Positions 1 to 63,340 of a stretch of DNA of 64,000 nucleotides are shown piece after piece. The translations under genes were made by a program, and so were the position numbers. Under the pieces are notes generated by a model that had not been told where the DNA came from, ran no database searches, and saw nothing but the letters and a program-made list of their open reading frames with translations. Each line of letters begins with the position of its first letter. Within the stretch, counting starts at the first letter, position 1. This DNA comes from Chiloscyllium plagiosum (taxonomy: Eukaryota), in NCBI RefSeq assembly GCF_004010195.1, contig NC_057753.1, positions 8,492,985 to 8,556,984 of the forward strand, read 5' to 3'.

Positions 1-412
1 TTTGTGGATGAGTGTCATGCTTCTAGGAATTCCCTGGCTGTTCTTTGTTTGGCTTGCCCTATAATGGTAGTGTTGTCCCTAGTATCCACACACGCAGGCG
101 ACAAGCAACATGAATTCGACTGGGACAACACTACCATTATAGGGCAAGCCAAACAAAGAACAGCCAGGGAATTCCTAGAAGCATGACACTCATCCACAAA
201 TTCCATCAACAAACACATCAACCTGGACCCAATATACCGGCCACTACAGCGGACAGCTGAAACTGACAACCGGAAGCGGCAGGGACAGGCCACTATAAAT
301 GCCGGAGGAGAAGCGCATCACAGGAGGCTCCCAAGCACTGAGGATGTCACCTAGACAGGGGACGAAACGTTTGCAACAAAAAGTTCCAGCTCGGCGAACA
401 GAACCACAACAA
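1..412 (+). mobile_element. Penelope-like element (PLE) 3' fragment: endonuclease C-terminus plus terminal repeat with hammerhead; inverted duplication at left
   Basis: Translates HEFDWDNTTIIGQAKQRTAREFLEA*HSSTNSIN (PLE GIY-YIG C-terminus pattern). Bases 1-79 are the reverse complement of 122-200. Same family as 5460-5869 and 41331-41421. Confidence 0.75.
332..376 (+). ncRNA. Minimal type-I hammerhead ribozyme motif (PLE-associated)
   Basis: gca-CTGAGGA-t-gtc(acctagacaggg)gac-GAA-AC-GT-T-tgc: conserved core, stem II, loopless palindromic stem III (ACGT) and a 3-bp stem I. Confidence 0.7.
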
Positions 413-749
413 ATACCATTCGTCTTGCACTGTTGTACACGACAATACTTTACATTGCGTTGATTATAACCAAGCACACATGTGCTACTATATACTATTT
501 CAGTTTGCTTATTCCTAACAGCGAACACCTCCTTTTCTCAGCAAGTCTCGACAATGCGTTGGCAATTACGATTTTTCACCCTGCCACGTGAACACATTTC
601 AAATTTAATGGCTAAAATGATAAGCTCCATCGAAACAGTGCGGAATATGTTTTCCCTTGAATTTCTCCAAATATTTTATTGTGTAAAGACCAGCATATCT
701 GATTGTCTCAGACACATTACTAGCATCATAAATATATGTTATAAATTCA

Positions 750-1414
750 TTTGTGGTACATGAGCATCGCTGGCTGGCCAGTATTGAGAATCCAACCCTG
801 TTTGCCCTTGAGAAGCTGCTGGTGACCTGCCTTCTTGAATCGTTAGAGTCCATCGCTGTGGGTTGACCCACAATGCTGGTAGGGAGGGAATGCCACGATT
901 TTGACTCAATGACTTTGAAGGAACAGTGGTATATTTCCAAATCAGGATGGCGTGTGGCTTGGAGGGACCTTGATAGTGGTGGTGTCCCCAAATACCTGTT
1001 TCTTTATCCTTCTAGGTGGAAGTGGTCATGAGTTTGAAAGTTGCTGTCAAAGGATCTCTGGTGAATTTCTGCAGTGTATCTTGTAGATAGTGCACACTGC
1101 TTTTACACAGTACTCCAATCAAGTGGTTTGTTTTGTGCTGGATGGTGTCAAGTTTCTTTCGGGTTGTTGGAGCTGAACCAATCCAGGCAAGCGAAGAGTA
1201 TTCCATCACACTCTTGACTTGCGTCTTGTAGATGGTGAATACGCTTTGTGATGTCAGGAGGTGAGTTACCTCGCCGCAGTATTCCTACTCTCTAACCTGC
1301 TATTGTAGTCCCCATGTTTATGTGGTGAGTCTAGTTGAGTCTCTGGTCAATGGTAAATCAAAGAATGTTGACAGTGGAGAATTCAGTGATGGTAATATTG
1401 TTGAATGTCAAGCT
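750..1414 (-). mobile_element. CR1/L2-group non-LTR retrotransposon 3' fragment
   Basis: Minus-strand MEYSSLAWIGSAPTTRKKLDTIQ resembles a CR1/L2-group RT C-terminus; decayed. Confidence 0.55.
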
Positions 1415-4400: not shown

Positions 4401-5160
4401 CTGAATGCTGTAACCTCTTTACCTGTTGCTTCTGGCCTATACCAGTAAACCTTAACCTTAATATGGTTTAAGAAGATCCAGAAATTACTCCTGGATTAAC
4501 GTTCGAACACTTTGCATATTCTGGTGCAGTTTTTTTAGCCTGCACTGTGCTTTCCTTTACCACTCCAACTAAATTCTCTCGCTTATCATAATTTCCTATA
4601 TCCGTATTCCCAGTGCATTTCCTTACCAACCAACAAGTGGCCTAATTTATTGAAGTGTTCACAGCGCAGCTTTTAACTTCTCTTTCCCCTGAACTCTGTG
4701 GTACGTTATCTTCTTTCCTTCACCGAGATCCACTTTTCGCTTATCACTTGATGATTTTTCTTTACGCCAATTTCTCTCTCTCATGGATTGAAACTGATAC
4801 TGGAAACCAAACTTTGATTTATGGACCATCTCATAATCATCAGCCATTTCAGCTGCTAATCTCGTTTTGACTCTACGTTCTTTCACATGCGTTTTCAGTG
4901 CTTCTGAAACTGAATATTTGCAATCCTCCAAATTAATTGTCCCTCTTAGATCGTCATATGCTTGCCCTTTTTTAAATCCCGAATGTACGTATCTCTTTCG
5001 TCTTTTCTTCACTTTCCTTTTCTTTTTGTTCCGCTAAAACTTTTGTGTCTTTCCATTTTTGCTCTGCTTTCAACCGTAATTCAAACTGTTCGTTCATTAC
5101 TCGCTTTCTCGCTCTTTTGCCACTAACCCAGCTGAAATCTTGAGTGTAAAGTTCTAATCT
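1415..5160 (-). mobile_element. Decayed Gmr1-like Ty3/Gypsy LTR retrotransposon internal region (gag-PR-INT-RT-RNaseH)
   Basis: Minus-strand order: gag (KTHVKERRVKTRLAAEMADDY, degraded CCHC near 4640), integrase C-terminus (LKARLNEPFEV...RVCHVNVLK, 2648-2941), RT (LPY..SPVNLAQLQKEVE, MPFG near 2065), RNase H (LTTATVLAT...VGVDAVL..DDEKIESPISY, 1458-1736). Many stops and frameshifts. Confidence 0.8.
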
Positions 5161-5459
5161 GCAGAATACTGAAGAGCTTTACGACTGTGGTTGGCGAGGT
5201 ATGTATAACAAATTTTGAATGTTCCCTGGATGAGAATTTGGAATTGTTGAATTTGAAAAGGACAAGGATAGAGACAATTTCATGGACGTTCGGTTCTTAA
5301 AATAATAACGAGTCTGGACGGAGTTGGTAAAGATACATTGTTCTTTCTAATTAAATAAGAATCGAAAATCAAAGGACACTGTTGTAAAGTGCGTTGCAAA
5401 TGAATCACTACTAGGTGGGAAAAAATACCTTCTTTCATACCACAACTATTTAGTGTGTT

Positions 5460-5869
5460 CAAAGTTTGTGAGAAGATTTGTAGCTCGGGTGCTCGTTGTT
5501 GTGGTTCTGTTCGCCGAGCGGGAAGTTTTTGTTGCAAACGTTTCGTCCCCTGTCTAGGTGACATCCTCAGTGCTTGGGAGCCTCCTGTGAAGCGCTTCTG
5601 TGGTGTTTCCTCCAGCATTTATAGTGGCCTGTCCCTGCCGCTTCCGGTTGTCAGTTTCAGCTGTCCGCTGTAGTGGCCGGTATATTGGGTCCAGGTCGAT
5701 GTGCAGCTGAAACTGACAACCGGAAGCGGCAGGGACAGACCACTATAAATGCTGGAGGAAACACCACAGAAGCGCTTCACAGGAGGCTCTCAAGCACTGA
5801 GGATGTCACCTAGACAGGGGACGAAACGTTTGCAACAAAAACTTCCAGCTCGGCAAACAACCACAGCAG
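5460..5869. mobile_element. PLE-derived inverted-repeat insert with two opposing hammerheads and a 13-bp TSD
   Basis: Arms ~5500-5663 and ~5704-5865 are reverse complements. TSD TATTTAGTGTGTT at 5447-5459 and 5870-5882. HHR motifs at ~5533-5575 (-) and ~5791-5835 (+). Confidence 0.8.
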
Positions 5870-6149
5870 TATTTAGTGTGTTGCTAGCCTGTCTGGATAT
5901 GCAGTGCAGCAAGGTTCAGATTGGATATTGAAGATGGTATTGCATGGTTGTTTAGATGAATATAATGGACAATGCCACGAGCAATTGGCGTCCAAAGGCA
6001 AGAAATCTGAAATGAATTACAATATTCAGCAAGCAGACGCAGATGCAATGGGCCTGAGGACCTGCTTCTGTACTGCAACCGTTCTACCATTCTCGTTATA
6101 GATCGTATTCATGTTGGTTCTTTTAATCCCTGCAGGATTTGAATGTACC

Positions 6150-6930
6150 CTATGAATAATGTCGTTGTATTATTTCACTGTGGAAGGAACAAATGGAATA
6201 AAGAGTACTGGACTAATGCTAAGGTTATTGGTAGTGTTGATGAGCAGGGAGATATCAGTGTCCATGTACAGCGATCCCTGAAAGTCGCCACCCAAGTTGA
6301 TAGGGTTGTTAAGAAGGTGTACGGTGTGTTAGCTTCTTGTGGTAGAGAGATTAAGTTTCAGATCCACGAGGTAATGTTGCAGCTGTAAAAAAAACTCTGA
6401 TGTGGTTCAACTTGGCGCATTGCATGCAATTCTGGTCACCACATTTCAGAAGGATGTGGCAGCTTCGGAAAGTGTTCAGAATAGGTTGACTAGGATGTTG
6501 CCTGATCCGGAGGGAACGTCTTATGAGGAAAGACTGAGGGACTGATGCTGTTTTTGTCAGAAAGAAGAAGGTTGATAGGTGATTTAATTGAAGCATATAA
6601 GGTAATCAGAGGGTTAGATCGGCCGGAAATTCATAGTTTTTTGTCTCAGCTGGTGATGGCTAGCACGTCGGGACATGGCATTATATTAAGGGGTGACAGA
6701 TATAGGGCAGATATCAGAGGTAGTTTATTTACTCAGAGAATTGTGGGAATGTTGAACGCCCAGCCAGCAACAGTAGTAGACTCTCCAACTTTAAAGGTAC
6801 TGAAATGGTCATTGGATAAACATATATATAATAATGGAATAGTGTAGGATAGATGAGTTTAGGATTGGTTTCACGGGTTGGCTCAACATCGATGGCCAAG
6901 AGGCCGTTCCGACACTGTAATGTTCTCTGT
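6150..6930 (+). mobile_element. CR1 LINE 3' fragment
   Basis: SLKVATQVDRVVKK..., RRLIGDLIEAYKVIRG, and a typical CR1 3' tail (tgtaatgttctctgttct). Confidence 0.8.
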
Positions 6931-10024: not shown

Positions 10025-12605
10025 ATATTGAATTGAATTGAATTTATTGTCATGTGTACTGAGGCACAGTAAAAAGCTTTGTCTTGCGAGCAATGCAGCC
10101 ATATCATAGAGTTCAGTAGCATAGTTAAGTAAATAATAGGTAAACAGAGGCTAAAAAAAAAACACAGGTACAAGCGAATGTTAAGAGTTTGTGAGTCCGT
10201 TCAGTACTCTAACAACAGTAGGTTAGAAACTGTTTCGAAACCAGCTGGTGCGTGTGTTCAGGCTTCTGCATCTTCTGCCCGATAGTAGAGGTTTTAGAAA
10301 AGCGTTGACAGGGTGGGATGGATCTTTGAGCATTCTGGCGGCCTTTCCTCGACAGTGGGCCTTGTCGATGCATTCTATAGATTGGAGGTTGGCCTTTGTG
10401 GATATCCAGGCCCAGTTCACCACTCTCGGTAACCGTTTCCGATCTTGAATGGTACAGCTACCATACCAGGTAGTGATACATCCAGACAGAATGCTCTCGA
10501 TGGCGCACCTATAAACGTTGGCAAGGGTATTCGCCGTCATGCCCAAATTTCCTCAGCTGCCTGAGGAAGAAGAGACGTTGTTGGGCCTTTCTAATTAGTG
10601 CGTCCACGTGAAGAGTCCAAGAAAGCCTGTTGTGGATGACCCAGGAGCTTGACAATCTCCATTCGTTTCACCTCTGTGCTGTTAATGTGTAGGGGGCATG
10701 ACTAATGTCCTGCCCAAAGTCAATAATGAGTTCCTTTGTTTTGCCAGGTTGTTCTCAGTGCATCATTTTCCAGGTCTTGAACCTCCCGTCTGTAGTCTGT
10801 TTCGTCGTCATCTGAAATTCGACCGACTACGGTGATGTCATCAGCGAACTTGCAAATGGCATTAGTCCGGTATTTAGTGACGCAGTCATGGTATACACTG
10901 ATTACAGCAGGGGGATGAGTACGCACCCCTGGGAGGCTCCAGTTTTGAGTGTTAGTGAGGATGAAATATTGCCCCCAATTTTCACTGATTGTGGCCTGTC
11001 TGTCAGGAAACTGAGGCTACAGTTGCAGCAAGTCAGGCTTAGTCCGACATCATTAAGTTTAGTAACCACTCTCAAGGGGATGATAGTGTTGAAGGATGAA
11101 CTGTAGTGAATGAGTAGCATTCTTACGTAACTGTTTTTGGTTTCAAGATGTTCTCGGGAGCAGTGAAGGGCAAGTGATATGGAATCTGACGTATATCTTT
11201 TGGTCAAATAAGCAAATTGGAGTGGGTCAAGAGTAGTGGGGAGACTGGAATTGATTAATGCCATGACCAGCCTTTCAAAGCACTTCATGACCACCGAAGT
11301 TAGGAAGAGTGTGCTGTAGTCATTGATACATGCTGCATAAGCGTTCCTAGGCACTCTTGATGATGTTGGCACTCTTGAACCAGGCAGGAACAGTGGCCGA
11401 TATCTGAGAAGACCTTTGCCAGTTGATCTGCGCATGCTCTGAGTGCACGGCCTGAGTGCTCCATCTCGTCCCACCACGTTCCTTGGATTCACACAAAGGA
11501 AAACTGATCTGACCTCTGATTCAGTGACTGTTGGCATTGGTTCGCCAGGAGTTGTCGGAATAGGTGTTATCTCTCCGCCGAAATTCTGCTCAAAGCGAGC
11601 ATTGAAGGCGTTCAGACAATCTGGGAGGGACGTAAAATCGTCTGCTATCTTGCACTGTCTCTTTTTAGGACCTGTGATATCATTCAGCCATTGCCATAAT
11701 CGCCAGGCATCTGTCTGCTTCTCTAGTTTTGATCTGCATTGGTCCTTGGCTGTCTTATTGGCTCTACGAAGGTCATGCTGGAAACGTGCAGCAGGTCAGG
11801 CAGCATCCAAGGAGCAGGAGAATCGATGTTTCGGGCATGAGCCCTTCTTCAGGAAGAAGAAGGTACAGAAGCCTGAAGAAGGGCTCATGCCTGAAACGTA
11901 GATTCTCCTGCTCCTTGGATGCTGCCTGTTTCCAGCAACACATTTTCAGCTCTGATCTCCAGCATCTGCAGACCTCACTTTCTCCTCTGCGAAGGTCATA
12001 CTTGGATTCCTTATATTTTCGTGGGTCTCCTGCTCTGAAGACCTGAGGCCTGGTTTTTTGCAGGTTCTCTACGTCCTGACTCATCCAGGGTATTCTGAGG
12101 GGAACACCCGGATTGAATTCCTCGATATGCAGTCCTCCACACACTTGCTGGTACAGTATGTGACGGTGGTGGTGTACTCGTCCAAGATACGTGCGAACTG
12201 TTTGAACATGACCCAATCAGCCGAATAAAGACAACACTAGAGATGATCCTCTATCTCCTCCGACCAGCATTGGACCTATATCCGCGAGAGCGTCTCCTGC
12301 TTGATCTTTTACCTGTACACCAGGAGAAGAAACCCAGCATTGTGGGCAGAGTTCCCAAAATTAGGGCAGTGGATGGAGCGGTAGGCATCTTTCACAGTGG
12401 TGTTGCAGTGGTCGAATGTGTTCGTGCACCTCGTGGGGCAAGTAATGTTCTGCTGGTACTTGGACAACACCATAGTTAGATTGGCTTGATTGACGTCGCC
12501 AGTTACAGTAAACAGGACCTCGGGGTTTTCCAGCTCCAGGGTGTTAGTGATCGAGCACAGCACATCCAGAGTTTCCTCAACCTTTGTTTGCGGCAGGATG
12601 CACAC
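10025..12605 (-). mobile_element. Rex1/Babar-type non-LTR retrotransposon (decayed EN-RT, 5' truncated)
   Basis: LDPLQFAY...YVRMLLIHYSSSFNTIIP, TGASQGCVL, CKFADD, YRCAIESILSGCITTWYG. 3' end is AATAAA plus a (TTCAA)n tail at ~10027-10048. Confidence 0.8.
11777..11984. mobile_element. Short PLE-derived inverted-repeat insert with two opposing hammerheads and a 15-bp TSD, nested in the Rex1 element
   Basis: TSD ctctacgaaggtcat (11762-11776) / ctctgcgaaggtcat (11985-11999). Arms carry CTGAAGA-A-GGGC-TCAT-GCC(C/T)-GAAAC on both strands around an ~18-nt spacer. Confidence 0.8.
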
Positions 12606-40560: not shown

Positions 40561-41330
40561 CAGTCTTATTAAATTTACAGTGTTGCTTTTCCTAAATCTC
40601 CTCATTATAACCCCGCCCCCCCCAACAAGGAACGAAGTAATGAACTATTTCAGTGCAGAAAGTAACAGGAAACGACACACCCTAATGAGTACCACATCTG
40701 GCGTCAGAAACGCAGGACCTCATTACAAATGGTTTACGTCCAACGTGGGAAACATGTTCAGAAAATAACTGCTTCGGGCATATTGGACATCAACACGAAG
40801 TGAACAGTGAGGGGTGATATTGCCACATGATGAGGATAGATAGTATCCAACTTCACAAAAGAACATGATGGTCATTGTAACATAACAAATATGAATAGAA
40901 TTAGGACATCCCGCCCAAAAGAGCAAGCTCCATCATTCATAAAATGGGGTGGCTGATCTGACATCCATCATGCACACTTTCATGCCTATTCGCCCGATCA
41001 TTTGATTTTTCAAACGAAGAAGAATTGAATTGAGTTGAATTAGCTTTACTATCACAAATACTCAACGAGTACAGTGAATAGCATGTACGCCGCCACTTAC
41101 AGCGTTATCTTAGGTACTAAGGGGCCGAGGAAAACTCCTTAGTTACAGAAAAGAGAAAGTAAAAACAAAGTTATGTTACAGTGATACACAGTATGAGCAG
41201 CGATCAGGAAAACAAGAAGCACAGTTAAAAAGACAAAAATCACAGTCACTCTCCAAAAACACTCTCGATGTCAGCGTTAAATGTATACTAGACTTTGCCC
41301 TACAGCTGTCCACAACAAGGAGGACCAAAG

Positions 41331-41421
41331 GAGGCTTCACAGGAGGCTCCCAACCACTGAGGATGTCACCTAGACGGGGACGAAACGTCTGCAACACAAA
41401 TTCCCAGCTCGGCGAACAGAA
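41331..41421 (+). mobile_element. Minimal PLE-derived insert, essentially one hammerhead, flanked by 21-bp direct repeats
   Basis: CTGAGGA at 41357 ... GAAACGTC at 41382-41389. Repeats ccacaacaaggaggaccaaag (41310-41330) / ccacaacaaggaggtccaaag (41422-41442). Confidence 0.75.
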
Positions 41422-41449
41422 CCACAACAAGGAGGTCCAAAGATTGACA

Positions 41450-42780
41450 AACGACTGAGAGACACAATTCCTTCACATTTCGCTGTTTAGTTGGCACCGT
41501 TTCATTGTAAGGCTGGTCTTGAACTCTCCCATGAGGGGAACTATCCTTTCCAGCATTTACTCGGGTAAACACCTTAATAATTCGATATGTTTGAATGAGA
41601 TCACATCTGATTCTTCTAACCTCCAATGAGTAGAGTTCCACTGTGTTTAACCTTCGATCGGATGACAATCTCTTTATCGCACCAAAAGAGAAAATGCTGG
41701 AAAATCTCAGCAGGTCTGGCAGCATCTGTAAGGAGAGAAAAGAGCTCAAAGGGTCAGTTAGACTCGAAACGTCAGCTCTTTTCTCTCCTTACAGATACTG
41801 CCAGACCTTCTGAGATTTTCCAGCATTTTCTCTTTTGGTTTCTGATTCCAGCATCCGCAGTAATTTGCTTTTATCTCTTTATAGCACGGGTCATCTTCAT
41901 GAACCTTCTCTGAACTGCCTGCAACGAATTGATCTCTTTCCTCAAATAATATGAACCAAGTTGCTCACCCTGCTGAAGATATCGTCTCGCCTGCAACTTG
42001 TCCAGTTAACAGTAGACTCCACTACTCTTATCCATGAATCCCCTTGAAATAAGCGCCAACATTTCGTTCACCTTCCTGATTACCTGCTGTAGCGTTGTGC
42101 TAGCTTTCCATATTCCATGCACAAGCACCTGCAAGTCTTTTTGTGTTGCAGCCTTGTCATTTTCCTCAATTTAATGAACACACTCTTATTTTGTTCTCCC
42201 TTCCTAAAGACAATTTCAAAATTTCGCATGTTATCATCCACTTTCCAAATTTTGCTCACTAACTGAACTGATCGATATCTCTCTTAAACTAATTATATGA
42301 AAATTGTGTTTATTTTTTCCACCGATTTATGTGTAACCTGCAAAATTGGATATAGTGGTTTAATTTCATTCCTCCAAGAGGTTAATACATTTTGCAAACA
42401 GTTGTTTTTGTAGCACTGATTCCTGTGGTTGCGAAACTGAAAAAGAACTGCTCACTCCCATTTATTGTTTCCTGGTTATTCTCTTTCATGAAAAAATATG
42501 ATTCTTCTTGAAGTGATTATGATTTTCCAAACATGCTGCTATCTGTTCTTTACTAATTGGTTCAACACTTTGCCAACAATAGACGTTACGCTCACCAAAC
42601 CAGTTACATGACTTTTGCTTCCTTCCCATATTCTTTGAAAGGTTCACATTTTCCGTTTTCTAATGCTTGGGCACTTTTCCAGGGCCAAAGGATTTTGGGA
42701 AAAAGAAATGCAACGAATTCTAGGATATCCTTTGAAAGATTCTGTCACAATATCCATCACCAGATTCTCAAGCACATTGA
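41450..42780 (-). mobile_element. Old CR1-group LINE fragment
   Basis: LYSLEVRRIRCDLIQTYRIIK in ORF 41366-41749; heavily decayed. Confidence 0.55.
41683..41872. mobile_element. PLE-derived hairpin insert with a partial hammerhead and a 15-bp TSD
   Basis: Arms ~41683-41746 and ~41772-41838 are near-perfect reverse complements. The loop holds gggtc-agtta-gactc-GAAACGTC without the CTGA core. TSD atctctttatcgcac (41668-41682) / atctctttatagcac (41873-41887). Confidence 0.72.
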
Positions 42781-43366
42781 GAGCACCTTTGAGCCTTTCT
42801 AATTCCATATGCTATCGACCAGGCTAGACCCCCTCAAAACATTTCAGGAAAGTGGACCTGACTCTAAATTTGATAGTTATTTCAAGCAGATGTAAGACAG
42901 ATATCCCAGGATTCTGGTCAAGCTGGTCAACCTACGTAGTTTCAAATAAAACAGAATTTATTTAGAAGATTACTGAATGAACACAAACAAAAGAGAACAG
43001 AATGCAAACAAATTTAACCTCTTCGAAAATTAAACAGATTATCCTAACTTGATAGTGCCATTCCAAATATTTGCAACATACTCCATAAATATGCCTTAGT
43101 ACAAAAGGTAAAATAAAACAAAGGTTCTTCAAGCATAGAACTCAGAAAGAGAATAACAGCCTGCACCTGCTTCTTTGGGTTTAGCAGCTTTTTTTTCAGA
43201 CAACTTAAAATCGAAACCAAATCAGAGGATAGCTAAGCTGGGTGAACGGGCAACTCCTCTTTCAATGTGCACGTGATTTTTTTTAATTGAAACCCTTCGG
43301 TCTGAGGCAGTATCTGTTCGCTGTTACAAAATAAGCATTAAGCCCTTCAACACCAGACTTTTCAGA

Positions 43367-43981
43367 TGATTTGGAGATGCCGGTGTTGGACTGGGGTGTA
43401 CAAACTTAGAAATCACACAAAACCAGGTTATAGTCCAACAGATTTATTTGGAAGCACTAGCTATCTGAGCGCTGCTCCTTCATCAGTTGATTGTGGAGAG
43501 TATGATTGTCAGACACAGAATTTATTGCTAAAGATTCCAGTGTGAAGTAACTGAATTTATATATTGAAAATGACTCGAAATGTTTATTAAGTTTCTCATC
43601 TTTCAGAATGACTATGTTGGTTTCAGTTCTTTCATATGTAAATTGCAAAACGTTTTTTTTTTCAAAAGTTACATTCTCACGTGCACATTAACAATTGGAG
43701 TCATGTTGACCCAGTTAAGGTATTGGAGGTGTTAACTCCCTGTGAGGTTGTCTGTGTCACAATGGTCAGACTGATTCTAATCTATAAAAACGGTTTTTCA
43801 GAATCTTACATGGATTCATGCAGTTTTTGAGCAAAGTAAAATGTAATTCTGCAGGTACGAATTCACCCACTGCTGGGGAAGTCATTACGGTTCCTCTCCG
43901 TGGCACATGGAACTGGCGGTCGATGAGTTGCGCTTCGCACCCCGTTCTTATGAGGGCATTCCTGAGTACTTCCAAGTTCCA
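43367..43981 (-). mobile_element. Penelope-like element fragment (RT remnant plus terminal repeat with degenerate hammerhead), 12-bp TSD
   Basis: LRNALIRTGCEAQLIDRQF. Minus-strand CTGATGA-A-GGAGC-AGC-GCTCA-GATAGC at ~43458-43487. TSD agacttttcaga (43355-43366) / agacttttcgga (43982-43993). Confidence 0.7.
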
Positions 43982-44265: not shown

Positions 44266-45059
44266 TTACCTCTCTGAAAGCTATAGCCAAGAACAGCATG
44301 ACCCTGTTAAAGGAGCGGCTTCATCATACCTCTCCCCTTGAAACGAAAACATTTATACACAAAGATGGCTTCATTTCAAAACCGTTAAGCTGAAATTGTT
44401 AGTATCCTCAAATACACATACACTTCATATCGACTATAAACGTGCAAGCATGCACTTCCATATTCTGATTCAGTCTCTTGAATTCCTGCCATCGAATGCC
44501 TCCTTTCCTCATACGAGTCTCACCAATGCGTCGGCAATCAGGTTTTCTCGTCCTGCCATATGCACAATTGTCAAATTGAATGGTTGTAGCAAAACTTCCC
44601 ATCTCAACTGTCTGACATGTTTGTCCTTAAATTTCTCCACAAGCTTCAATGGGTGCAATACGTGCAAATGATTGTCTCAAATGCAATACTGGAAACATAA
44701 ACACTAAATCGTTCCAATACCAGCATCAATTCAAAGTATCCTTCTCAACTGTCGAAGATTTCTGGTGATGTATGTTCACCTTTTAGGAGATATTCCCGAT
44801 AGTTTCTTTCTATCTTCTTGAAGTCTTCGACCCTACCGACACAAATATCAATTAAATCAATAGATGCCGTGAATGGTTTTGTGTAATTAGCTGTGGCAAA
44901 TACCAGGTCAGTGGTTAACGCAGGTTTCAGGATTTCAGATGTCTTCTGACATGTCGCTGTTCACTGAAACTTGTTGTTTTCTTCAACAATTCAGTGAGTG
45001 TGGCAGCCAATGCGGCTAACATTTGGTATGAATTGTCGACAAATACACTTACTTTTCGG

Positions 45060-45240
45060 CAGAAGTGGGTACTGCAGATATTGGAGATTAGATTCAAAAT
45101 TAGAGTGATGCTGGAAAAGCACAGCAGGTCAGGCAGCATCCGAGGAGCATGAAAATCGACATTTCGGGCAAAAGCCCTTCAATAGAAATCCTGATGAAGG
45201 TCTTTTGGCCGAAACATCCATTTTCCTTTCTCCTCCAGCA
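45060..45240. mobile_element. Short PLE-derived insert with opposing hammerhead motifs
   Basis: Same family as 11777. CTGATGA-A-GGTC-TTTT-GGCC-GAAAC-ATC at 45191 (+) and a degenerate inverted copy at ~45152-45185. Confidence 0.7.
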
Positions 45241-50371: not shown

Positions 50372-50547
50372 AGCAAGATTAGAGTGGTTCTGGAAAAGCA
50401 CAGCCGCTCAGGCAGCATCCAAGGAGCAGGAAAATCGATGTTTCGGGCAGGATCCCTTCATTCGAAATGAGCGCAGCCTGAACTGCTGTGCTTTTCCAGC
50501 ACCACTCGACTGTAATCTCTAGCATCTGCAATCTCACTTGCGCCTCG
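50372..50547. mobile_element. Short PLE-derived insert (11777 family) with a degenerate minus-strand hammerhead
   Basis: ctggaaaagcacagc...gatgtttcgggcaggatcccttcat followed by the inverted ctgctgtgcttttccagcaccact. Confidence 0.65.
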
Positions 50548-51975: not shown

Positions 51976-52655
51976 TGTCTCAAATCAAATTGGACACTAA
52001 AGAAGTTGGCAAAAAATGGGATTCGTCATCGTGTTACCTTCCACAAGAACATCGAAATTACTGTCACATGGGCAGATATTGGAAATAAGCCGAGAAGTAC
52101 TAACCGCGTTGTGGATGATGTAGATACAACAGATGGTGTCCCGATTAAGCAACATCCTTATCGGCATGATCCTCTAAAGTTGGTGCAATTTCAGAAGGAC
52201 ATAGAGCGCATGCTACATGACGGCATAATCAAAGTGAGTTACAGTGACTGGAGCTCATCCATAGTCATGACACCAAAACCAGATGGTACCCAAATGTTAT
52301 GTGTGGGCTAACTCAAAGTCAACGCCATGACAGAGATTAATGTTATACAATTCGCGGTTGGAGGACTGTGTCGAAGATGTGGATAAGCAACTTATATTTC
52401 TAATTTGGAGTTTCTCAAAGGCAACTGGCAGATACCTCTGTCAGACAGAGCAAAAACAATCTTGGCTTTCGTAATGCCAAATGGACTATATCGGTTTACA
52501 ATCATGCCATTTGGTATGAAAAACGGTCCAGCTACCTTTCAGACTGACGAATAAGTTCATTGCTGGGTTACCTAACTGTATTGTTTGCATTGATGAACTG
52601 ATGATCTTTCGTCACTCATGAAAGAAGAAATTACAGCATTTATCTGACTTACCGA

Positions 52656-52770
52656 AATTTGTAGATCAGGTTGAGGTTCTGGGATTCGCTATGCTCGCTG
52701 AGCTGGAGGCTGATTTTCAGACGTTTCGTCATCATACTAAGTAACAGCTTCAGTGAGCATCCGGACGAAG
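52656..52770 (-). mobile_element. PLE terminal fragment with degenerate hammerhead
   Basis: Minus strand ca-CTGAAGC-tgttac...gac-GAAACGTC-tg. Confidence 0.55.
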
Positions 52771-53307
52771 TTAGATGGATATGAGCCAAATGCTGGAACG
52801 TGGGTCTAGATTAATTTAGGACATCTGCTCGACAGGGGCTCTTTGGACAGCAGGGTCTGTGTCTGTGCTGTATACTTGTATGACTCAATATCTCAACAGG
52901 CTCTGGGCTTTATATACAGTGATGCCCGCAAAGCATCGCGCATGCGCTCCTTGACATTCCTCATGTGTTCTAGAACCTTAGCAATCGGACTGAAATCTCA
53001 ATTGCAAAGTCATTCTCTACTGTGAATACAAATGAAATGTGTTACTGAACGTCCGCCGGCTCTACGTGCCTCTGCCCCTTTTGATTCTAAATTGCGTCCC
53101 GGTTTTCCTGGCAATAATCTTATTGTAAATACACGAATAAAATGCTTTCAAGACTTCCATTGATAAATTGTGCTGAAGATATTTTGTGGTCACTCGTCCT
53201 CCTAATTAATATTTTAAATACCCACAGAGCACTCTCTGTGCCTTTAAAGGACCTCCCTTGTTTTTATTACAATCGACATAATCTCTGCATTTTTTTGCCT
53301 TTTCAAA

Positions 53308-53950: not shown

Positions 53951-53952
<2 letters not shown>

Positions 53953-54012: not shown

Positions 54013-54014
<2 letters not shown>

Positions 54015-54019
54015 TATGT

Positions 54020-55779: not shown

Positions 55780-56165
55780 GCACCAGTGTATTCACCGCCT
55801 TTCCACTCCTTCTATTCGCTCTCACTGTGGGAGAAGTTCAGGTGATTGTTAAACATTCAGCAACAACAGCAAGCTCACCCGGGGACAGGTCAGTCAACTT
55901 TGTCTTGTGTGTGAATGAATTCATTAATTCATTAGAAGTGCTCGCACATTCCTAGATTCACATTCAGTGTCTACCAGCGCACTTACACTGAGGAGAAACC
56001 TTTCAGTAGCTTCTATTATAGGAGTAAATTCAGTCAGTCAATCATTCCCACATCAACACACAACAACGTGTTCACACTAAAAATAATCTTTTTCAAAGTT
56101 CTTCATACGGGCAGAGACTTTGAAGCAAAATGTATCTGCTGAAACACAAACCCATTCACACTAGT
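55780..56165 (+). pseudogene. Further, more decayed C2H2 zinc-finger remnants
   Basis: YQRTYTEEKPFS, QQRVHT and HKPIHT linker remnants. Confidence 0.55.
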
Positions 56166-57065
56166 ACAACCACTTAATTTCTCTCTGGAACGGTCTGTTT
56201 CCACACTGTAGGGATTCTGTTCTATTCTATTAGAATTCCCTGCTTAATTGGTGCGTGTGGGCTATACACCAGAATGCGTGAATCGTCACATCCTGGAACA
56301 TCCATGAGGGTGTGAACCTGACAGTCAATCTGTGATCACTCCTGCAGTGAGCATTGACACTGACCCTTCTGAATGTTGTAGGCTCATAGAGTGTACTCTG
56401 AAGAATCTGGGTTCATTATCCTGTCTGATACATGGTGAAGAATTGGAGAAATCCGTAGAAACTGTTGGGAGTGTTATTTGTCAGTATCCTTCTAGTGGTG
56501 AAAAATAGGAAATGTTTCTTCCTCTCAGTGCCACTCACAGTTTTGCCCATTTCAATCATATATCTCTCAGTCTTCTCTGTTCCAAAGAAAGCAACCGCAG
56601 TCGGTCAAAACTGTCTTCACAACCAAATGGTTAGTCAAATTCTGGTAGATCCCTGCAGCCTCATCAGTCTCATATCTCTAATAATATCTCTGCTCTAATG
56701 TGGAATACACGATACTATTCTCATTTTAGCTGAAGGAATTGTTCATACATTTAAAGCATAATCTCCCTGCATTTAATCATTCAAGAGAGTGATATGGCAG
56801 AGCTGAGTATGGTGACCATCACCAAGGAGAAGATGCTAAAAATGAATTGCCTGAACACAGATAAATGACCTGGAAACGATGGACTACACCCTAGAGGTAT
56901 AAGGGAGATCACAGAAGAGGTAGAGGAGGCGGAAGTGATGATGTGCCAGTATTCGCTGGAATATGGGAGGTTCCAGAGTACTGGAAATCGCTAAATTGAC
57001 ACCCTATTTTTAAAGGGAGTAATGGAAAAAACGGAGAATTACAGACCGATTAGCAAAATCTCAGC

Positions 57066-57361
57066 ACCGCCTTCTTGACCTGCAATCTTCTTCCCGACCT
57101 CTCCGCCCCCACCCCCTCTCCGGCCTATCACCCTCATCTTGACCTCCTTCCACCTATCGCATTCCCAACGCCACTTCCCCAAGTCCCTCCTCCCTACCTT
57201 TTATCTTAGCCTGCTTGGCACACCCTCCTCATTCCTGAAGAAGGGCTTATGCCCGAAACGTCGATTCCCCTTCTCCTTTGATGCTGCCTGACCAGCTGCG
57301 CTTTTCCAGCAACACATTTTTAAGCTCTGATCCCCAGCATCTGCAGTCCTCACTTTCTCCT
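57066..57361 (+). mobile_element. PLE terminal-repeat insert (C-rich segment plus hammerhead)
   Basis: Same family as the 11777 right arm, ending cagtcctcactttctcc. Confidence 0.72.
57231..57267 (+). ncRNA. Intact minimal type-I hammerhead ribozyme motif
   Basis: attc-CTGAAGA-A-GGGC-TTAT-GCCC-GAA-AC-GT-C-gatt: full core, perfect 4-bp stem II, GUC cleavage triplet (predicted cut after 57262). Confidence 0.75.
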
Positions 57362-58357
57362 GCTAGCATGAATGACTTGGCTGACTGGCAGAAAGGAGAG
57401 AGTGGGGATAAAATGGTCTTTCTCAGGATGGCAGCCGCTGACAAGTCCACAAGGTTCAGTGTTGCGACGACAACTTTTCACTTTACACATTAATGACCAA
57501 CATGATTGGTCATTCCAGCTACGTTTGCAGGTGATACAACGATAGGTCAAAAGTCACGTAGCATTTAGAAAGTGGAGAGGTTTCAGATTTGTACCGGTTA
57601 GGAGAATGGGCAAAGAAGTGGCAGATGAAGCACCACGTGGGAAATGTGAGATCATGCATTTTGATAGGAAGAATTGAGGCATGGTTTATTTTCTAAATCA
57701 GAAAAAACCAGAAGTCTGAAATGCAAAGCTACTGAGAGGTATATTCCCGATTTCTCTCAAGCTAAACTTGCAGGCTGATTCAGTGATTCGGAAAGCAAAT
57801 GCAATACTGGCATTTATTTTGAGAGGACTTGAATATAAAAGCAGAGATGTACTTCTGAGGCTCTACAAGGCTCTAGTCATACCTCACTTCCAGTATTGCG
57901 CGCAGCTTTGCATCCGATATCTCAGGAAAGATGTATTGACCCTGGGGTGTGTTCAGAGGTGGTTCATGAGAATGGTCCCAAGCTGAAAAGCTGAACATAT
58001 GAGAATTGTTTGAGGACTGAGTTTATACTCGTGGAGTTCAGAAGGTTGCAGGGGCATGTAACTGAAGAATAGAGAATACTGAATGTCCTGAAAAGCGGAG
58101 ATATGGTGAAGATGTTTCCATTGTTGGGAGAGATTAAGATCCGATGGCATAGCCTTAAAATAAAGGGTCGGTCTTTTAGAATGAAGATGAGGAGATAGGT
58201 CTTCAGCCAGACAGTGGTGAATCTATGGAATTCACTATCACAGAAGATTGTGGAGGCCAGCTCATTGAATACATGTAAGACAGAGACGGATAAGTTTTTG
58301 TGTATGAAGAGGATGAGTGGTTACCGGGAGGAAGCGTGAAAATGGGCTGAGAAACTT

Positions 58358-59560
58358 ATAGAACATAAAGTCTAGAATATAACAGCGCAGTACAAGCCCT
58401 TCTGTCCTCGATGTTGCGCCAACCTGTGAAACCAATCTGAAGACCATGTAACCTCCACTATTCCATTGTCTTTCATTTGTTTATCCAATGGAAATGGAAA
58501 TGTGTTCAAAGTTTGCGAGTCTACTACTACTGCAGGTAGGGTATACCACGCCCTGACTACTCACTGAGTAACGAACCAACATTTAACGTATGTCCTGTAT
58601 CTACCACCCGTCAAATCAAAGCTATGTCTCCTCCTGCTAGCCATCATCTTTCGAGGAAAAAGGCTCTCGCCGTCCACCCTATCTAATCCTCTGATCATCT
58701 TGCATGTTTCGATTAACTCCCCTTTTAACTTTCTCTCGAACGAAATCAGCCACGGATCCCTCAGACTTTCCTCATAAGACCTTGCCACCAAACCAAGCAA
58801 CATCCTGTAAAATCTCCCACTCACCCTTTCTAATGCTTCCACATCTTCTCTATGATGTGGTGACCAGAACTGTACACAATACTCCAAGAGCGGATGCAAC
58901 AGTGTTTTGTATAGCTGCAACATGACCTCGTGATTTCAACACTCAATTCCTCTACCAATAGAACCGAAAACACCGTACACCTTCTTAACCACCCTATCAA
59001 TCTGAATGGGGAATTTCGGGGATTGATTCACATGGACACTAAGATCCTCTGCTCATCCATGCTACTACGAATCTTACCATTAGTCCAGTACTGTGCATTC
59101 CTGTTACTCCTTCCAAAGTGAATAATCTCCCATCATTTCACATTAAACTCAATTTGTCACCTCTCAGCACAGTTCTGCAGCTATGCTATGTCTCTCTGTG
59201 ACCTGCAAAAGCCTTCCACACTTTACACAGTTCTTGTGACTTTCTGGCATCCGCAACTTTACTAACCCATCCTTTTACGCCCTCATCCAGGTCATTTACA
59301 AAAAAAAGACAAACATCAGTGCACCAAAATGAAGCCTTCCGATATGCCAATAGTAACTAAACTCCAGGATGAATGTTTCCCATCAACCACCTGTCTTCTT
59401 TCAGCTCGACAATATCTGGTCCAATCTGTGAAATAACCCTAAATCCCACTCCTCCGTATTTTATGCAATGGCCTACCATACGCCTGATTGAAATCCGTAT
59501 GCACCATATATACTGCTTAACGCTCATCCACCTGGTTAGTGACCTCCTCAAAGAATAATT
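58358..59560 (-). mobile_element. CR1 LINE 3' fragment
   Basis: LYKTLLHPLLEYCVQFWSPH, KGELIETCKMIRG, tail atagaacata at ~58358. Confidence 0.82.
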
Positions 59561-61381
59561 GAAGGTTGAATGTTCTGACGCCTTAGTTACATTTTGGTAA
59601 CTAGAAAAGAAAATCAGCTTCAGCACTACCTTGCTGTTCTGCGTCTTCGCTTAATTTTCATTCTCTAATGTTCAAAGCAACTGATCTCCCACCTCCCTAT
59701 ACTATCTCAGGAACCTAAGTTATAATTCAAAGATGTATCCATAATCATAGCTACGTTTTTACCCAAGGCTCTGCAAGACATGGATAAAACCAATCCCATT
59801 GGAACTGCTTATATCTTTCGCTGTTGTAGTGCCAATGCCCGCTAAATTCAAACCCATTTCTCTCACAAATATTTGAACTACATATTCACCTAAAAAATCT
59901 TGTTGACCCTGGTACGACGACGTAACTTCCAGTTCCGGACAATGGCTGAGTGGTAAAACACATTCGAGTTTCTCTTGACTCAAACTGATTGGGGTATTTG
60001 GTCTTTGATTCGTTTTCTCTTGAACATTAGCAATCATACGTTCTTAAACTTTGTCACGTGCAGCTGTAATATGTGAGAAAACAATGAGTATCTCAATACT
60101 TGCGAAGAAGAAAGAAATGTTCCAGAGTCTAGCGGGAATACATTAGCGTCTGTAAATATGCAAATGTAAGATTGACGCAGAAATCTGCTGATTTTACAGC
60201 AATAAGACAGAAAATAACGAATTAATTTAGCACCACCATAATTCATCAGTTTACAACGATACAGTAACCCGTTTTCAAGGAAGCTGCCACTTTCTGCGAG
60301 ACGGAAAATCACAAAGTGGGTAAATAAAGATATGTCTTGGCCCTAAAACTAGAATTTAGAATTCACTGTTCTGGGCAAGAATATATAGAAGTTGGTGGCA
60401 ATGGCGACTTCAGAGTGGTGACCTGGAGAAAGGACCTCTGAAGTAATGGACGCTCTCATTTTTGAAAGGTTTTATTTCCGATGGAACAGTGAAAAATCGT
60501 GAAGATAGCAATATAGCAGAAGGCAGGAAAAGAGCTATGCACAAAACTTTTGTCATCTCCTGACAGGTATTTCACTACACATGATTTTGTTCAAGACACA
60601 TATTGTACTTTCGCGCTGCCTGTAGGCGATTACCTCGATATATAAAACTGATGCATACAGATGATGCAGATATGATTCGTCATGTGCTTTTCTCACATAC
60701 CTGGTTACCGTATTGAAAGAGAATAAGTCTTCGAAGAGAAATGCCATATGAAGTTCAGCCCTATTGTTAGATTCAGTTTATGAAGTGTGTTTTTTTTTAC
60801 GCCCAGTCGGACGAAATCATGTTGGTGGCTACAGAACTGACATTTGTTATCTCTTTGTTCAGGTTGTGTTCTATCCCCATCACAACTAACTTCAGGCTGA
60901 TGACCTAACTCTGAACAAACAAGTTGAATAAAAGATGTTCAAGTTAGAACTCCTGACGTGAGAATGCCTCGATCAGTTTCAAAAGGCTTTGTACTGCCAT
61001 GTATGCTTTGTGGATAAATCCCCAATCTAAGCATACAGTCATCATTCTCAATTGATGAAAAATGAGAAAGCCAGTGTTGAACGCATGCAGGAAGCTTGTG
61101 TTCTGCTTACTAATAAACCAAATGCGGACTCAGTGGCTGCTCAGCATTAATTCTGATATTCTGACACCCTCATGACAGATAGAAATTCACTGGATCTGAC
61201 AGCATATTACAATATCAGAACGATTTGCAACATCAATTTTTATATTAATGCTATTTTTTCAGTCGCACTCTTAGTAAGTTTCCAAAATATATGCAGCTTT
61301 CAATGAAAGTCAGACTTAATACGGGCAATTTGAAGAACCTTTTCTAAAATCATGCAGAATACAGATAATATTTGTATCTTT

Positions 61382-62292
61382 TCAACATTTACATAATTTA
61401 CCAAACAAATTAAGTGGATATCTCAATCCATTCTTAAATTCATCTCGGATTTTACCCTGTGTCACGGCATAAATAAATGGATTGATGCAGGAACTCAGTA
61501 ACTGAAGCATATATCCACTTTCCTGAAGAAATGATATTGAATCAGTTACACTGGAACCCGAAGAGTAAGTCACACTTCTGACTCGAACGTAGAAGATAGT
61601 TACAAAATATAGCAAATATGACAGAATGAAACTGCCTGAGATACCAAAGAGTAACACAATGGACTTTCGCCGCTTCTCAACCTCTGGATCATTTTGGTTC
61701 TCTTCAGCACTCTGGGATCGAAATCTCTTGCGGACTCGATTGGCTGCTAGAATGTGTCTGACAGTCAGAACATTGAGCAATAAAATTAAAATGAAGGGAA
61801 AACAAGGAGTTAAAATGGATCGCATCCAATCAAATACAATCCACGCGGGTGATGCATAGAACATTAATTTATGGACACAGAACCAAGGTGTGTCATTCAG
61901 TATGTACAAAGGTTCGAATACAAAATACCAGAAGGCATTCTTTATACAGCTCAGTGTGCAAACACTTCCAATAATCCAGCCTGCTGTCTTCTCTGTACAG
62001 TATTTTATTTTCAGCTTCTGGCAACAAATCGCCACAAATCGATCAAAGGTGAAAGCGACCGTCAACCAAGCAGAACTGTCTATGGCTTCATAAATTAATG
62101 CAACACGAAGACTGCATACTGGTGTGATGGACAGAAAACTCAATGGGAAGAAAATTCCAGCAATGCGACTTAATATCACAGCCGTGATAATGACCTGGAG
62201 ATCTGTCACTGCCATGGACACCAGATAATATGTGATACATTTAGAGAGCCCGCATGTTTTTCGAGACAATATCAGTATTACCGCCAAGTTTG
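61382..62292 (-). CDS. GPR139/GPR142-like class A GPCR, gene 2, large 3' exon (exon 1 presumably beyond the window end)
   Basis: Uninterrupted frame ANLAVILILS...DRFVAICC...INPFIY...KLCKC*. Acceptor ttttttttcgattgcag|CA lies at the same codon and phase as in gene 1. Ungapped alignment to gene 1 gives about 199/298 identical residues (manual count). Confidence 0.93.
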
Positions 62293-63244
62293 CTGCAATC
62301 GAAAAAAAAGCGAGGGTAAAATACAATTAATATCCTTCAGAGATCGAACATGAAAACATGTAGTTTAACCTCCATTAAAAATTTTCAGAGCGTTTAATCA
62401 ATTGTGTATCTCCAAAACAGTGACCTGTATTAACAAATATCTCTTGTATAGCAATGTTTCTCCATTTGGTACAATCAACCAACTTAAAAGTAAATTAGCA
62501 TAATGATGCAGCGAAGTCAGTAGTGAAATATAATAGAAACACGTAGTTAATACAAAAAAATCTTCAAAACCAAAAGTAGAATAGGTAAAATGAATTACCA
62601 AATGGGAGAAAGAAATCGAGGAATAATGCGTCGAATGTGTGACACGCAAGGAACAAAAACAACAGTAAGTCAAGAAAAATTATATGTTTTGAGTTTCAAA
62701 AATAGCGATATTCATCAAATTATTTGTTTGAAATGCCTGTAATCAACTTTGACAAAACAAAAACCTCATGAGGAACGGCAGAACGGACAATTGACATATT
62801 TTTGAGTTTGCAATGAAAAGACTGGTTAGAATGCAACAAAGTATCTAACTCTTCCCATGACAGTCACTTGGAACTGTTCATGTCGAACTGAACCACTGTA
62901 GTGTAGAGATAATGAGATTTCATTCAGAGAAATGTCTGTTTCTAAATGTATAATCTTAAAGTTGCAAGGTGTTGTGTGAGATTTTTATTCATATAATGGG
63001 AATTTGAAATCAAAAATTCTAGTCTCAGTTATGAGACATTTCAACTGCTCTAGCTTTATTCATTCTAGAGAGAAAAAGAACGAAAATGATACTGGTTGCA
63101 ATATTACGAAGTGAACGGAGCAAGAAAACGTTTGTGGAGTTCAATGCATGGAAGTCAGAAAATCAACTAATCGGGAGAACAGAACAAAACGACAATGTGG
63201 TCTAACCAGCTACGATTCGTACAGAGATTCTTGGAATTGATTGT

Positions 63245-63340
63245 TCAGAGTCGAGAGTGTGGTGCTAGAAAAACCCGTCAGGTCATACAACATCCGAGGA
63301 GCGGGAGAATTGACGTTTTGGGCATTAGCCTTTTCAGATC
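63245..63340 (-). mobile_element. PLE-derived fragment with inactivated hammerhead, in the presumed intron of GPCR gene 2
   Basis: Matches the 11777 family. Minus strand CTGAA-AAGGC-TAAT-GCCC-AAAACGTC (core deletion, GAAA to AAAA). Confidence 0.6.

What the first reader, a model, noticed from the sequence alone, without database searches (positions are those of the whole stretch)
332..63340. About 14 hammerhead-ribozyme motifs from at least four short Penelope-derived families in 64 kb
Seen: CTGANGA-[extra nt]-stem II-GAA-AC-GT-H motifs, intact or decayed, at ~338+, 5540-, 5797+, 11830-, 11873+, 41357+, 41750 (partial), 43470-, 45165-, 45191+, 50445-, 52725-, 57235+ and 63320-. They fall into distinct stem-II families (gtc..gac, gggc..gccc, ggagc..gctc, gggtc..gactc). 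Established: PLEs carry minimal type-I HHRs with palindromic stem III that cleave as dimers, and retrozymes are non-autonomous HHR retroelements. Inference: most copies here are non-coding, 90-410 bp and have their own TSDs, so they may be a very abundant ribozyme-based non-autonomous retroelement system rather than just truncated PLEs.
Basis: partly seen in the sequence, partly recalled or inferred. Interest (0 to 1): 0.7.

Follow-up and report, generated by a model that had tools for sequence, protein, structure and literature searches.

The report
Penelope retroelement tail stubs with hammerheads
The 14 hammerhead-ribozyme motifs are real and sit in 11 short insertions that are likely the cut-down, mostly dead tail ends of Penelope-like jumping genes in a shark-type genome, a known kind of debris, although copies of one family tend to start at one fixed base that may mark where its RNA begins.

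Summary
All 14 motifs are present. Eight have both catalytic boxes intact (0.27 expected by shuffling) and five keep the whole minimal type-I hammerhead pattern. They lie in 11 insertions of 96-616 bp (4.4% of the window). Family 1 is not non-coding: it is the end of a Penelope/Poseidon RT-GIY-YIG ORF (86% to a Chiloscyllium protein), truncated at five different 5' points. Six of 11 units are head-to-head inverted pairs. All five complete pairs have one short arm and one arm with a ~36-45 nt tail. None is a head-to-tail tandem. This is the published insertion pattern of Penelope-like elements, not a retrozyme. One side result: in public reads, family 2 shows a roughly six-fold depth step and a loose-end peak at 57231. 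That base lies 4 nt upstream of the core, not at the cut site, and is the A of an initiator-like motif. It may be the RNA start, which leaves a SINE-like reading open (about 15%). No autonomous partner was found for families 2-4, and cleavage was not tested. The scan has reported this pattern several times before on other pieces of this genome.

The parts
1..79 (-). Family 1 inverted arm, coding (GIY-YIG C-terminal part), runs off the window
   Evidence: 100% reverse complement of 122-200; tblastn 96% to P0002 residues 385-409
79..412 (+). Family 1 arm: last 91 codons of a Penelope/Poseidon ORF (79-354, one internal stop), hammerhead core at 338 overlapping the last codons, short 3' end
5460..5703 (-). 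Family 1 arm with intact motif (C3 at 5570) and ~36-nt tail; left arm of an inverted pair
   Evidence: 13-nt perfect TSD 5447-5459 / 5870-5882
5704..5869 (+). Family 1 arm with intact motif (C3 at 5797), short 3' end; right arm of the pair
11777..11864 (-). Family 2 arm (C3 at 11852), short 3' end
   Evidence: 15-nt TSD with 1 mismatch 11762-11776 / 11985-11999
11872..11986 (+). Family 2 arm (C3 at 11873), starts 1 nt before the core, long 3' end with tail
41331..41430 (+). Family 1 solo stub (C3 at 41357), starts ~23 nt before the core
   Evidence: 21-nt direct repeat 41310-41330 / 41422-41442 that overlaps the element's last 9 nt
41683..41746 (-). Family 4 arm that begins at the first base after the NUH cut site; short 3' end
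   Evidence: 15-nt TSD with 1 mismatch 41668-41682 / 41873-41887
41747..41872 (+). Family 4 arm that begins inside the CUGANGA box (core incomplete); long 3' end
43364..43979 (-). Family 3 unit, 616 bp, decayed motif (C3 at 43486, GAAA box mutated); its 5' part looks like a PLE RT fragment by eye, unconfirmed
   Evidence: 11-nt TSD at control-maximum score; no protein hit
45051..45188 (-). Family 2 arm, decayed core (C3 at 45185), long 3' end
45189..45240 (+). Family 2 arm, intact boxes (C3 at 45191), internal deletion, short 3' end
   Evidence: 11-nt TSD at control-maximum score
50375..50471 (-). Family 2 arm, decayed core (C3 about 50464), short 3' end
50473..50545 (+). Family 2 arm without hammerhead (starts ~20 nt after the cut site), long 3' end
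52655..52775 (-). Family 1-related solo stub (C3 at 52753, A9 mutated), about 67-70% like family 1
57043..57361 (+). Family 2 longest copy: ~190 nt pyrimidine-rich upstream part, intact motif (C3 at 57235, predicted cut after 57262), two 3' end sites near 57316 and 57361
57229..57235 (+). Initiator-like motif; its A (57231) is the peak of 5' loose ends of family 2 in public runs
63245..63337 (-). Family 2 solo stub, strongly decayed motif

Best explanation
These are 3'-terminal (pseudo-LTR) stubs of at least four Penelope-like element (PLE) families, shown for family 1 and likely for families 2-4, each likely inserted by the RT/GIY-YIG protein of an autonomous element and mostly dead on arrival. 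Shown: minimal type-I hammerhead motifs; for family 1 a Poseidon-type ORF whose last codons overlap the core; variable 5' truncation; two alternative 3' ends about 36-45 nt apart; head-to-head inverted pairs with one arm ending at each site; 13-21 nt TSDs in four units. Inferred mechanism: the PLE protein cuts both target strands and primes reverse transcription at two adjacent internal sites of the PLE RNA (shown in vitro for the Anolis element, PMC11167929). Two short cDNAs, one from each cut strand, would then be joined at their truncated 5' ends, giving a fold-back with one short and one tailed arm. The hammerhead is carried along because it lies 30-130 nt from the priming sites. It is not needed for the insertion, and in the fold-backs it is predicted to be paired up and unable to cleave. 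For family 2, many cDNAs stop 4 nt upstream of the core. The likeliest reason (about 55% among the options for this end) is that priming in the upstream pseudo-LTR of a full-length transcript runs off its capped 5' end, like a strong-stop product.
For: Family 1: window 79-351 is 86% identical over its whole length to P0002 (463 aa, Chiloscyllium punctatum), which ends at the same residues and has an RT hit (PF00078, E 3e-6, below the curated cut-off); P0006 has a weak GIY-YIG hit (E 0.027). Five family-1 arms start 259, 219, 124, 84 and 23 nt before the core. Six of 11 units are inverted pairs; 5 of 5 complete pairs have one short and one tailed arm. Public runs laid on the family 2 copy give 3' loose-end peaks at 57315-57320 and 57359-57361 in all three runs with signal, and RNA depth rises gradually from 52 to 254 over 57060-57224. 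An unrelated Poseidon family from metagenome contigs has the same anatomy: RT-GIY-YIG upstream, a continuum of 5' ends (88 copies, 1-574 nt), 34 long and 43 short 3' ends, 10 of 10 two-copy loci inverted. These features are described for PLEs in PMC8557442, PMC3846280, PMC11167929, PMC4209133 and PMC8969392. For the RNA-start reading: a loose-end peak at 57231 with heterogeneous flanks (208 reads in X21, 271 contigs in X5, agreement 0.31-0.39); 6 of 8 window arms start within -13..+5 of C3; 57231 is the only TCAKTY match in 319 nt; 4 of 4 listed joint rows that enter at 57231/57232 have a G just before, where the genome copy has C (table 5c).
Against: No ORF or autonomous partner was found for families 2, 3 and 4, and no whole genome was available. 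Their PLE origin rests on the motif, the tail and the inversion pattern. Family 2 is not a plain continuum: depth steps about 6.5-fold in RNA reads (254 to 1646) at the core's 5' edge, whereas only 7 of 88 copies of the comparator family start within 7 nt of the core. A few DNA contigs (7 in X1, 6 in X5, of about 58,000-60,000 laid each) go back 130 nt from 57360 to 57231, which may be direct tandems. One family 4 arm starts exactly at the cut site. TSDs are clear in only 4 of 10 testable units. Against the RNA-start detail: the X21 loose-end consensus before 57231 ends in T, not G; 57231 is not among the six rows shown for X1; 998 loose-end rows and 113 joint-letter rows were not shown; sister subfamilies with a different upstream sequence could add to the step.
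Confidence: 0.85

Rival explanations
1. Family 2 (perhaps also 4) has become a SINE-like non-autonomous element: the ~131-nt module from 57231 to the tail carries its own initiator and internal promoter, is transcribed from scattered copies and is re-mobilised in trans by a PLE protein.
For: Fixed 5' end at an initiator-like motif and two fixed 3' ends; 6 of 8 window arms start at the core's edge; no coding partner found; the Drosophila Penelope promoter lies inside the transcribed region (PMC2377424); pLTRs suffice in cis for mobilisation in a rotifer (PMC3846280); putative non-autonomous PLEs exist in Chlamydomonas (PMC8557442).
Against: A longer copy sits in the window (57043-57361), and reads and contigs show the element continuing beyond 57060 with gradually rising depth. 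Most short copies lose the first bases of the initiator (starts at -1, -2, 0, +5) or are locked in fold-backs. 94% of laid RNA reads run on into unrelated sequence and both orientations occur, as for passive co-transcription. The 131-nt module folds no better than shuffles (z 0.11).
Confidence: 0.1
2. Retrozyme-like system: hammerhead cleavage of tandem transcripts makes unit-length or circular RNAs that are reinserted.
For: Intact minimal motifs with conserved pairing across families; one arm starts exactly at the cut site (41746); rare 130-nt go-back joints in DNA contigs; a 2026 preprint derives animal retrozymes from PLE pLTRs and finds them in the one cartilaginous fish sampled (10.64898/2026.07.22.740005).
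Against: No tandem array of these modules in the window; the three same-family motif pairs within 1.5 kb are all inverted; the 5' peak lies 32 nt upstream of the cut site, so cleavage cannot make it; motifs are minimal, not canonical; family 1 is coding; 0 of 3,490 RNA reads show the go-back joint (a weak test, poly(A) library).
Confidence: 0.04
3. The family 2 5' peak is not an RNA start but a stall or template-switch point of the RT at the edge of the folded or protein-bound hammerhead, or partly an artefact of sister subfamilies that share the motif and tail but differ upstream. This changes only the detail, not the PLE-stub verdict.
For: 57231 is also the 5' edge of the short stem I; the peak holds 208 reads of a step of about 1,400; the X21 loose-end consensus is pyrimidine-rich like a sister upstream region; the comparator family also has an initiator-like hexamer with its A at -4 yet shows no peak.
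Against: Loose-end agreement is low (0.31-0.39) and AT-rich in X5, as for unrelated flanks; inverted joints also enter at 57231; a G not in the genome copy precedes the start in 4 of 4 listed joint rows.
Confidence: 0.35

Closest known systems
Minimal hammerheads (min-HHR) in the pLTRs of metazoan PLEs (Cervera and de la Pena 2014, PMC4209133)
   Same: Type-I core, extra base between 9 and 10.1, G10.1-C11.1, palindromic stem III without a loop, several variable families per genome, mostly single motifs tied to truncated PLEs, and close pairs on opposite strands (the paper notes such pairs 100-700 bp apart).
   Different: Shark families are not named in the parts read. Density here (14 in 64 kb) would be far above the roughly 4,000 and 9,000 per genome reported for coelacanth and Xenopus if it held genome-wide (extrapolation). 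Stem I is only 2-3 bp.
Insertion units of endonuclease-positive PLEs, Penelope/Poseidon and Neptune clades (Craig et al. 2021 PMC8557442; Arkhipova et al. 2013 PMC3846280; Frangieh et al. 2024 PMC11167929)
   Same: 5' truncation, adjoining inverted 5'-truncated copy, 30-40 bp tail at one end, TSD, two internal RT start sites, RT followed by a C-terminal GIY-YIG domain (family 1).
   Different: In family 1 the core overlaps the last codons of the ORF, while in the Anolis element the ORF starts at stem II. Family 2 has a tail of about 41-45 nt and a preferred 5' end at an initiator-like motif, which my five paper searches did not find described.
Non-LTR retrozymes of animals (Cervera and de la Pena 2020 PMC7229834; Li et al. 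2026 preprint 10.64898/2026.07.22.740005)
   Same: Short, hammerhead-bearing, PLE-related, partly non-coding repeats.
   Different: Retrozymes are head-to-tail tandem repeats of 150-450 bp with canonical type-I hammerheads and circular RNAs. Here the motifs are minimal, units are solo or inverted, and one family is coding.

Membership tests
Minimal type-I hammerhead of PLEs | CUGANGA and GAAA boxes with NUH site | tested here: met
   Intact in 8 of 14 sites, 0.27 expected
Minimal type-I hammerhead of PLEs | Extra base between positions 9 and 10.1, and G10.1-C11.1 pair | tested here: met
   8 of 8 intact sites
Minimal type-I hammerhead of PLEs | Palindromic stem III that can form only in a dimer | tested here: met
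   6 of 8 intact sites, plus 52753, 43486 and 41747; co-folding of family 1 pairs this palindrome between two molecules
Minimal type-I hammerhead of PLEs | Stems keep pairing while sequence changes | tested here: met
   Stem II differs in all four families yet pairs; stem I pair 3 changes on both sides between family 1 and 52753. Counted by hand on few sequences, no statistical test.
Minimal type-I hammerhead of PLEs | Self-cleavage as dimer or with protein help | not testable with these tools
   Needs an in vitro assay; 3 of 4 family 1 copies have a GUU triplet, recalled to be a weak one
Endonuclease-positive PLE | RT plus GIY-YIG ORF upstream of the terminal module (family 1) | tested here: met
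   86% to P0002; RT hit E 3e-6 (below the curated cut-off); weak GIY-YIG hit in P0006. Clade name Poseidon is by motif recognition, no tree was built.
Endonuclease-positive PLE | RT plus GIY-YIG ORF upstream (families 2, 3, 4) | tested here: inconclusive
   No coding match; copies are too short and no genome is held
Endonuclease-positive PLE | Variable 5' truncation | tested here: met
   Family 1: five different starts. Family 2: a continuum plus a peak at 57231.
Endonuclease-positive PLE | Adjoining inverted 5'-truncated copy | tested here: met
   6 of 11 units
Endonuclease-positive PLE | 30-40 bp tail at one end | tested here: met
   5 of 5 complete pairs; two 3' peaks 41-45 nt apart in public runs
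Endonuclease-positive PLE | Target-site duplication | tested here: met
   Clear in 4 of 10 testable units, borderline in 2
Non-LTR retrozyme | Head-to-tail tandem repeats with a hammerhead in each unit | tested here: not met
   None in the window; 6-7 possible cases among ~58,000-60,000 contigs per run
Non-LTR retrozyme | Canonical type-I hammerhead with helix III | tested here: not met
   All motifs are minimal, with no helix III loop and a 2-3 bp stem I. Li et al. also accept minimal motifs if in tandem.
Non-LTR retrozyme | Non-coding | tested here: inconclusive
   Not met for family 1; no ORF seen for families 2 and 4
Non-LTR retrozyme | Unit-length linear or circular RNA with ends at the NUH site | tested here: inconclusive
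   No pile of ends and no go-back joint in 3,490 reads of one poly(A) single-cell run; such a library cannot show non-polyadenylated circles

The most novel reading that the evidence does not exclude
Family 2 is a polymerase II, initiator-started mini-retroelement of about 131 nt (hammerhead plus PLE priming sites) that has escaped its parent and spreads in trans to tens or hundreds of thousands of copies in sharks: a SINE-like parasite of PLEs whose 5' end is the capped RNA start and whose promoter overlaps the ribozyme core.
Probability: 0.12. Interest if true: 0.6.

Novelty: new member of a known kind. Interest (0 to 1): 0.22.

Why it matters
As a class this is known: PLE ends with minimal hammerheads, inverted arms and tails are in print, so the motifs need no new system. 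The usable part is mechanistic. How PLEs build inverted arms and what their hammerhead does are open questions (PMC8557442, PMC11167929). A very abundant family with a sharp 5' end at an initiator-like base, not at the cut site, gives a cheap genome-scale test of where the template RNA begins and of whether cleavage shapes insertions. If the short copies prove to be sources themselves, it would be a PLE-dependent SINE equivalent in a vertebrate.

Tried and rejected
No whole genome is held, so no genome-wide count or consensus could be made. Rfam found no hammerhead; its miRNA hits are the fold-backs and lie below gathering scores. Relaxing the descriptor to one mismatch added mostly chance hits (13 observed, 5.3 shuffled). 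A shark-specific family 2 pattern found nothing in metagenome contigs. A generic pattern returned 120 loci, 114 of 130 motifs from one unrelated Poseidon family, used only as a comparator; 21 copies cut by contig or flank ends and 5 duplicates were dropped before the count of 88. The RT-like piece at 43850-43978 gave no hit in three searches, so its label is my recall only. Families 2-4 had no protein-level match to P0002, P0006, P0008 or to the fetched loci. No RNA holder was listed for 56000-58000; run X22 laid 0 reads and is no test. Summed contig depth was not used as copy number. Cleavage-defined 5' ends were rejected as the general rule: 1 of 17 arms starts at the cut site. A splice acceptor at the family 2 start was considered (the Drosophila intron ends at helix I) and rejected, since no AG precedes 57231. 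Five paper searches ran; none showed a description of an initiator-aligned 5' peak. The library lacks most subscription papers, bioRxiv supplements are closed, I opened no supplements, and Repbase/Dfam could not be checked.
Full report
Setting. The window is vertebrate DNA of 41% GC with LINE and SINE debris and two rhodopsin-family GPCR ORFs. The best protein relatives of its retroelement fragment are from Chiloscyllium, Hemiscyllium and Rhincodon, so a bamboo-shark-like source is inferred. No whole genome is held.

Observation. All 14 sites exist. A strict minimal-hammerhead descriptor gives 8 hits against 0.27 in 15 shuffles. Site by site: both boxes are intact at 338, 5570, 5797, 41357, 11852, 11873, 45191 and 57235; 52753 and 43486 have one core change; 45185, about 50464 and 63337 have two or more; 41747 lacks the first box. 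The 50464 and 63337 rows were out of register and were read from the alignment. Five sites keep the boxes, stem II, the palindromic stem III and 2-3 bp of stem I. The features listed for PLE minimal hammerheads in PMC4209133 (parts 1-2 of 4 read) are met: extra base after A9, G10.1-C11.1, palindromic 15.2-16.2. Rfam has no model that picks them up.

Anatomy. The motifs belong to 11 insertion units of 96-616 bp, 2,840 bp in all. Six are head-to-head inverted pairs (1-412, 5460-5869, 11777-11986, 41683-41872, 45051-45240, 50375-50545). In each of the five complete pairs one arm stops at a short 3' site and the other runs on for a tail of about 36-45 nt. Four units have TSDs of 13-21 nt above all 60 random controls, two equal the control maximum and four have none or a control-level one. 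There is no tandem array of these modules, and the three same-family motif pairs within 1.5 kb are on opposite strands. Folding three pairs with intact cores puts the core inside the fold-back helix (prediction).

Family 1 is coding. Window 79-351 reads as 91 residues with one stop and is 86% identical over its length to P0002, a 463-residue protein with an RT hit and, by eye, a GIY-YIG-type C-terminal domain. The ORF ends inside the hammerhead, with the stop codon in loop II. All five arms match this C-terminus and start 259, 219, 124, 84 and 23 nt before the core.

Comparator. A generic pattern scan of metagenome contigs gave 130 motifs in 120 loci, 114 from one unrelated family. Its long copies encode RT-GIY-YIG (E 6e-26 to P0002). 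After dropping 21 censored copies and 5 duplicates, 88 copies have 5' ends spread from 1 to 574 nt, 7 of them within 7 nt of the core; 34 have the long and 43 the short 3' end; 10 of 10 two-copy loci are inverted. So the anatomy seen in the window is what an ordinary PLE leaves behind.

Family 2 in public runs (stretch 57000-57420, 80% likeness, 4 runs, one with no reads). About 58,000 and 60,000 contigs and 3,490 RNA reads were laid. 3' loose ends peak at 57315-57320 and 57359-57361. RNA depth rises from 52 to 254 across the upstream part, then to 1,646 at 57240-57254. 5' loose ends peak at 57231 (208 reads, 271 contigs; agreement 0.31-0.39), and inverted joints enter there too. In the window, 6 of 8 arms start within -13 to +5 of C3. 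The predicted cut is after 57262, so this end is not a cleavage product. 57231 is the A of the only TCAKTY match, and one of three YYANWYY matches, in the 319-nt copy (the consensus motifs are recalled). The four listed joint rows entering at 57231/57232 all have a G before the start where the genome copy has C; an extra G from copying a cap is recalled from full-length L1 insertions. Against this: the RNA-run consensus ends in T, the position is not among the six rows shown for X1, most rows were hidden, sister subfamilies may add to the step, and the comparator family has a similar hexamer at -4 without a peak. RNA reads lie in both orientations, 94% run on into other sequence, depth is continuous over the cut site and no pile of ends was called; a poly(A) single-cell library is a weak test.

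Mechanism. Shown in print for the Anolis element (PMC11167929, parts 1-2 of 4 read): the PLE protein cuts and extends both strands, starts reverse transcription at two adjacent internal sites that define the tail, does not need hammerhead cleavage for insertion, and the ribozyme cleaves only with protein. Inferred here: priming from both cut strands, one at each site, then joining of two truncated cDNAs gives the fold-backs. Arkhipova et al. (PMC3846280, passages) instead suggest self-priming on an antisense template; my data do not separate the two. PLE transcription starts in the upstream pLTR from an internal promoter (PMC2377424 passages; PMC6765202 passages), so a transcript holds the priming sites twice. 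Priming at the 5' copy would run off the RNA start after about 85 or 131 nt, which fits the family 2 peak. That step is inference.

Comparison and novelty. 5' truncation, an adjoining inverted copy and a one-sided 30-40 bp tail are stated PLE hallmarks (PMC8557442 passages; PMC8969392 passages). Retrozymes are tandem repeats with circular RNAs (PMC7229834 passages; preprint 10.64898/2026.07.22.740005, parts 1-3 of 5); that defining arrangement was tested and not met. Dimer cleavage by Lunse et al. was seen only as cited. Families 2-4 work like PLE ends, but their membership lacks the ORF test. Earlier notes of this scan reached the same reading on other pieces of this genome and had already noted the 5' clustering; that note prompted my test, and I do not count it as support. 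The initiator match and the extra G are my additions and are unconfirmed.

Verdict. Real motifs, known kind of element, new shark members. Interest 0.22; novel SINE-like reading 0.12 likely, worth 0.6 if true.

Noticed in passing
window:14050-15015 (-) and 61382-62326 (-): Two intronless paralogous rhodopsin-family GPCR ORFs (7tm_1, E 6e-19 and 2e-20), probably part of a local gene cluster.
   Followed up: partly
window:41310-41330 and 41422-41442: The target site begins with 9 nt identical to the element's short 3' end, so priming here may have used microhomology with the template.
   Followed up: no
window:41746: The family 4 minus arm starts exactly at the first base after the NUH cut site; the only such arm of 17.
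   Followed up: partly
window:43364-43979 (-): 616-bp family 3 unit seems to join a short RT-like piece directly to the 3' untranslated end, as if internally deleted; protein searches gave no hit.
   Followed up: partly
window:57258-57261: The stem III palindrome lies at +28 to +31 from the initiator-like A, where a downstream promoter element would lie; may be coincidence.
   Followed up: no
window:12620-12751: Very decayed inverted pair resembling the family 2/4 tail, with no hammerhead left.
   Followed up: partly
proteins P0004 and P0007: Database isoforms of two host genes (a 5'-nucleotidase-domain protein and MAP3K7) carry the family 1 C-terminus, i.e. annotated exonisation of PLE ends.
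   Followed up: no
run X21, place 57359: 174 reads share one downstream flank with a poly(A)-signal-like motif, probably one expressed host 3' UTR that holds a family 2 copy.
   Followed up: no
window:57043-57361: The longest family 2 copy sits inside a CR1-like LINE fragment with no TSD; the two flanks look like non-adjacent parts of the LINE, so target DNA may have been lost.
   Followed up: no
L001-L120: An abundant Poseidon-type family from an animal host in metagenome contigs, with an initiator-like hexamer whose A also lies 4 nt before the core but with no 5' peak there.
   Followed up: partly
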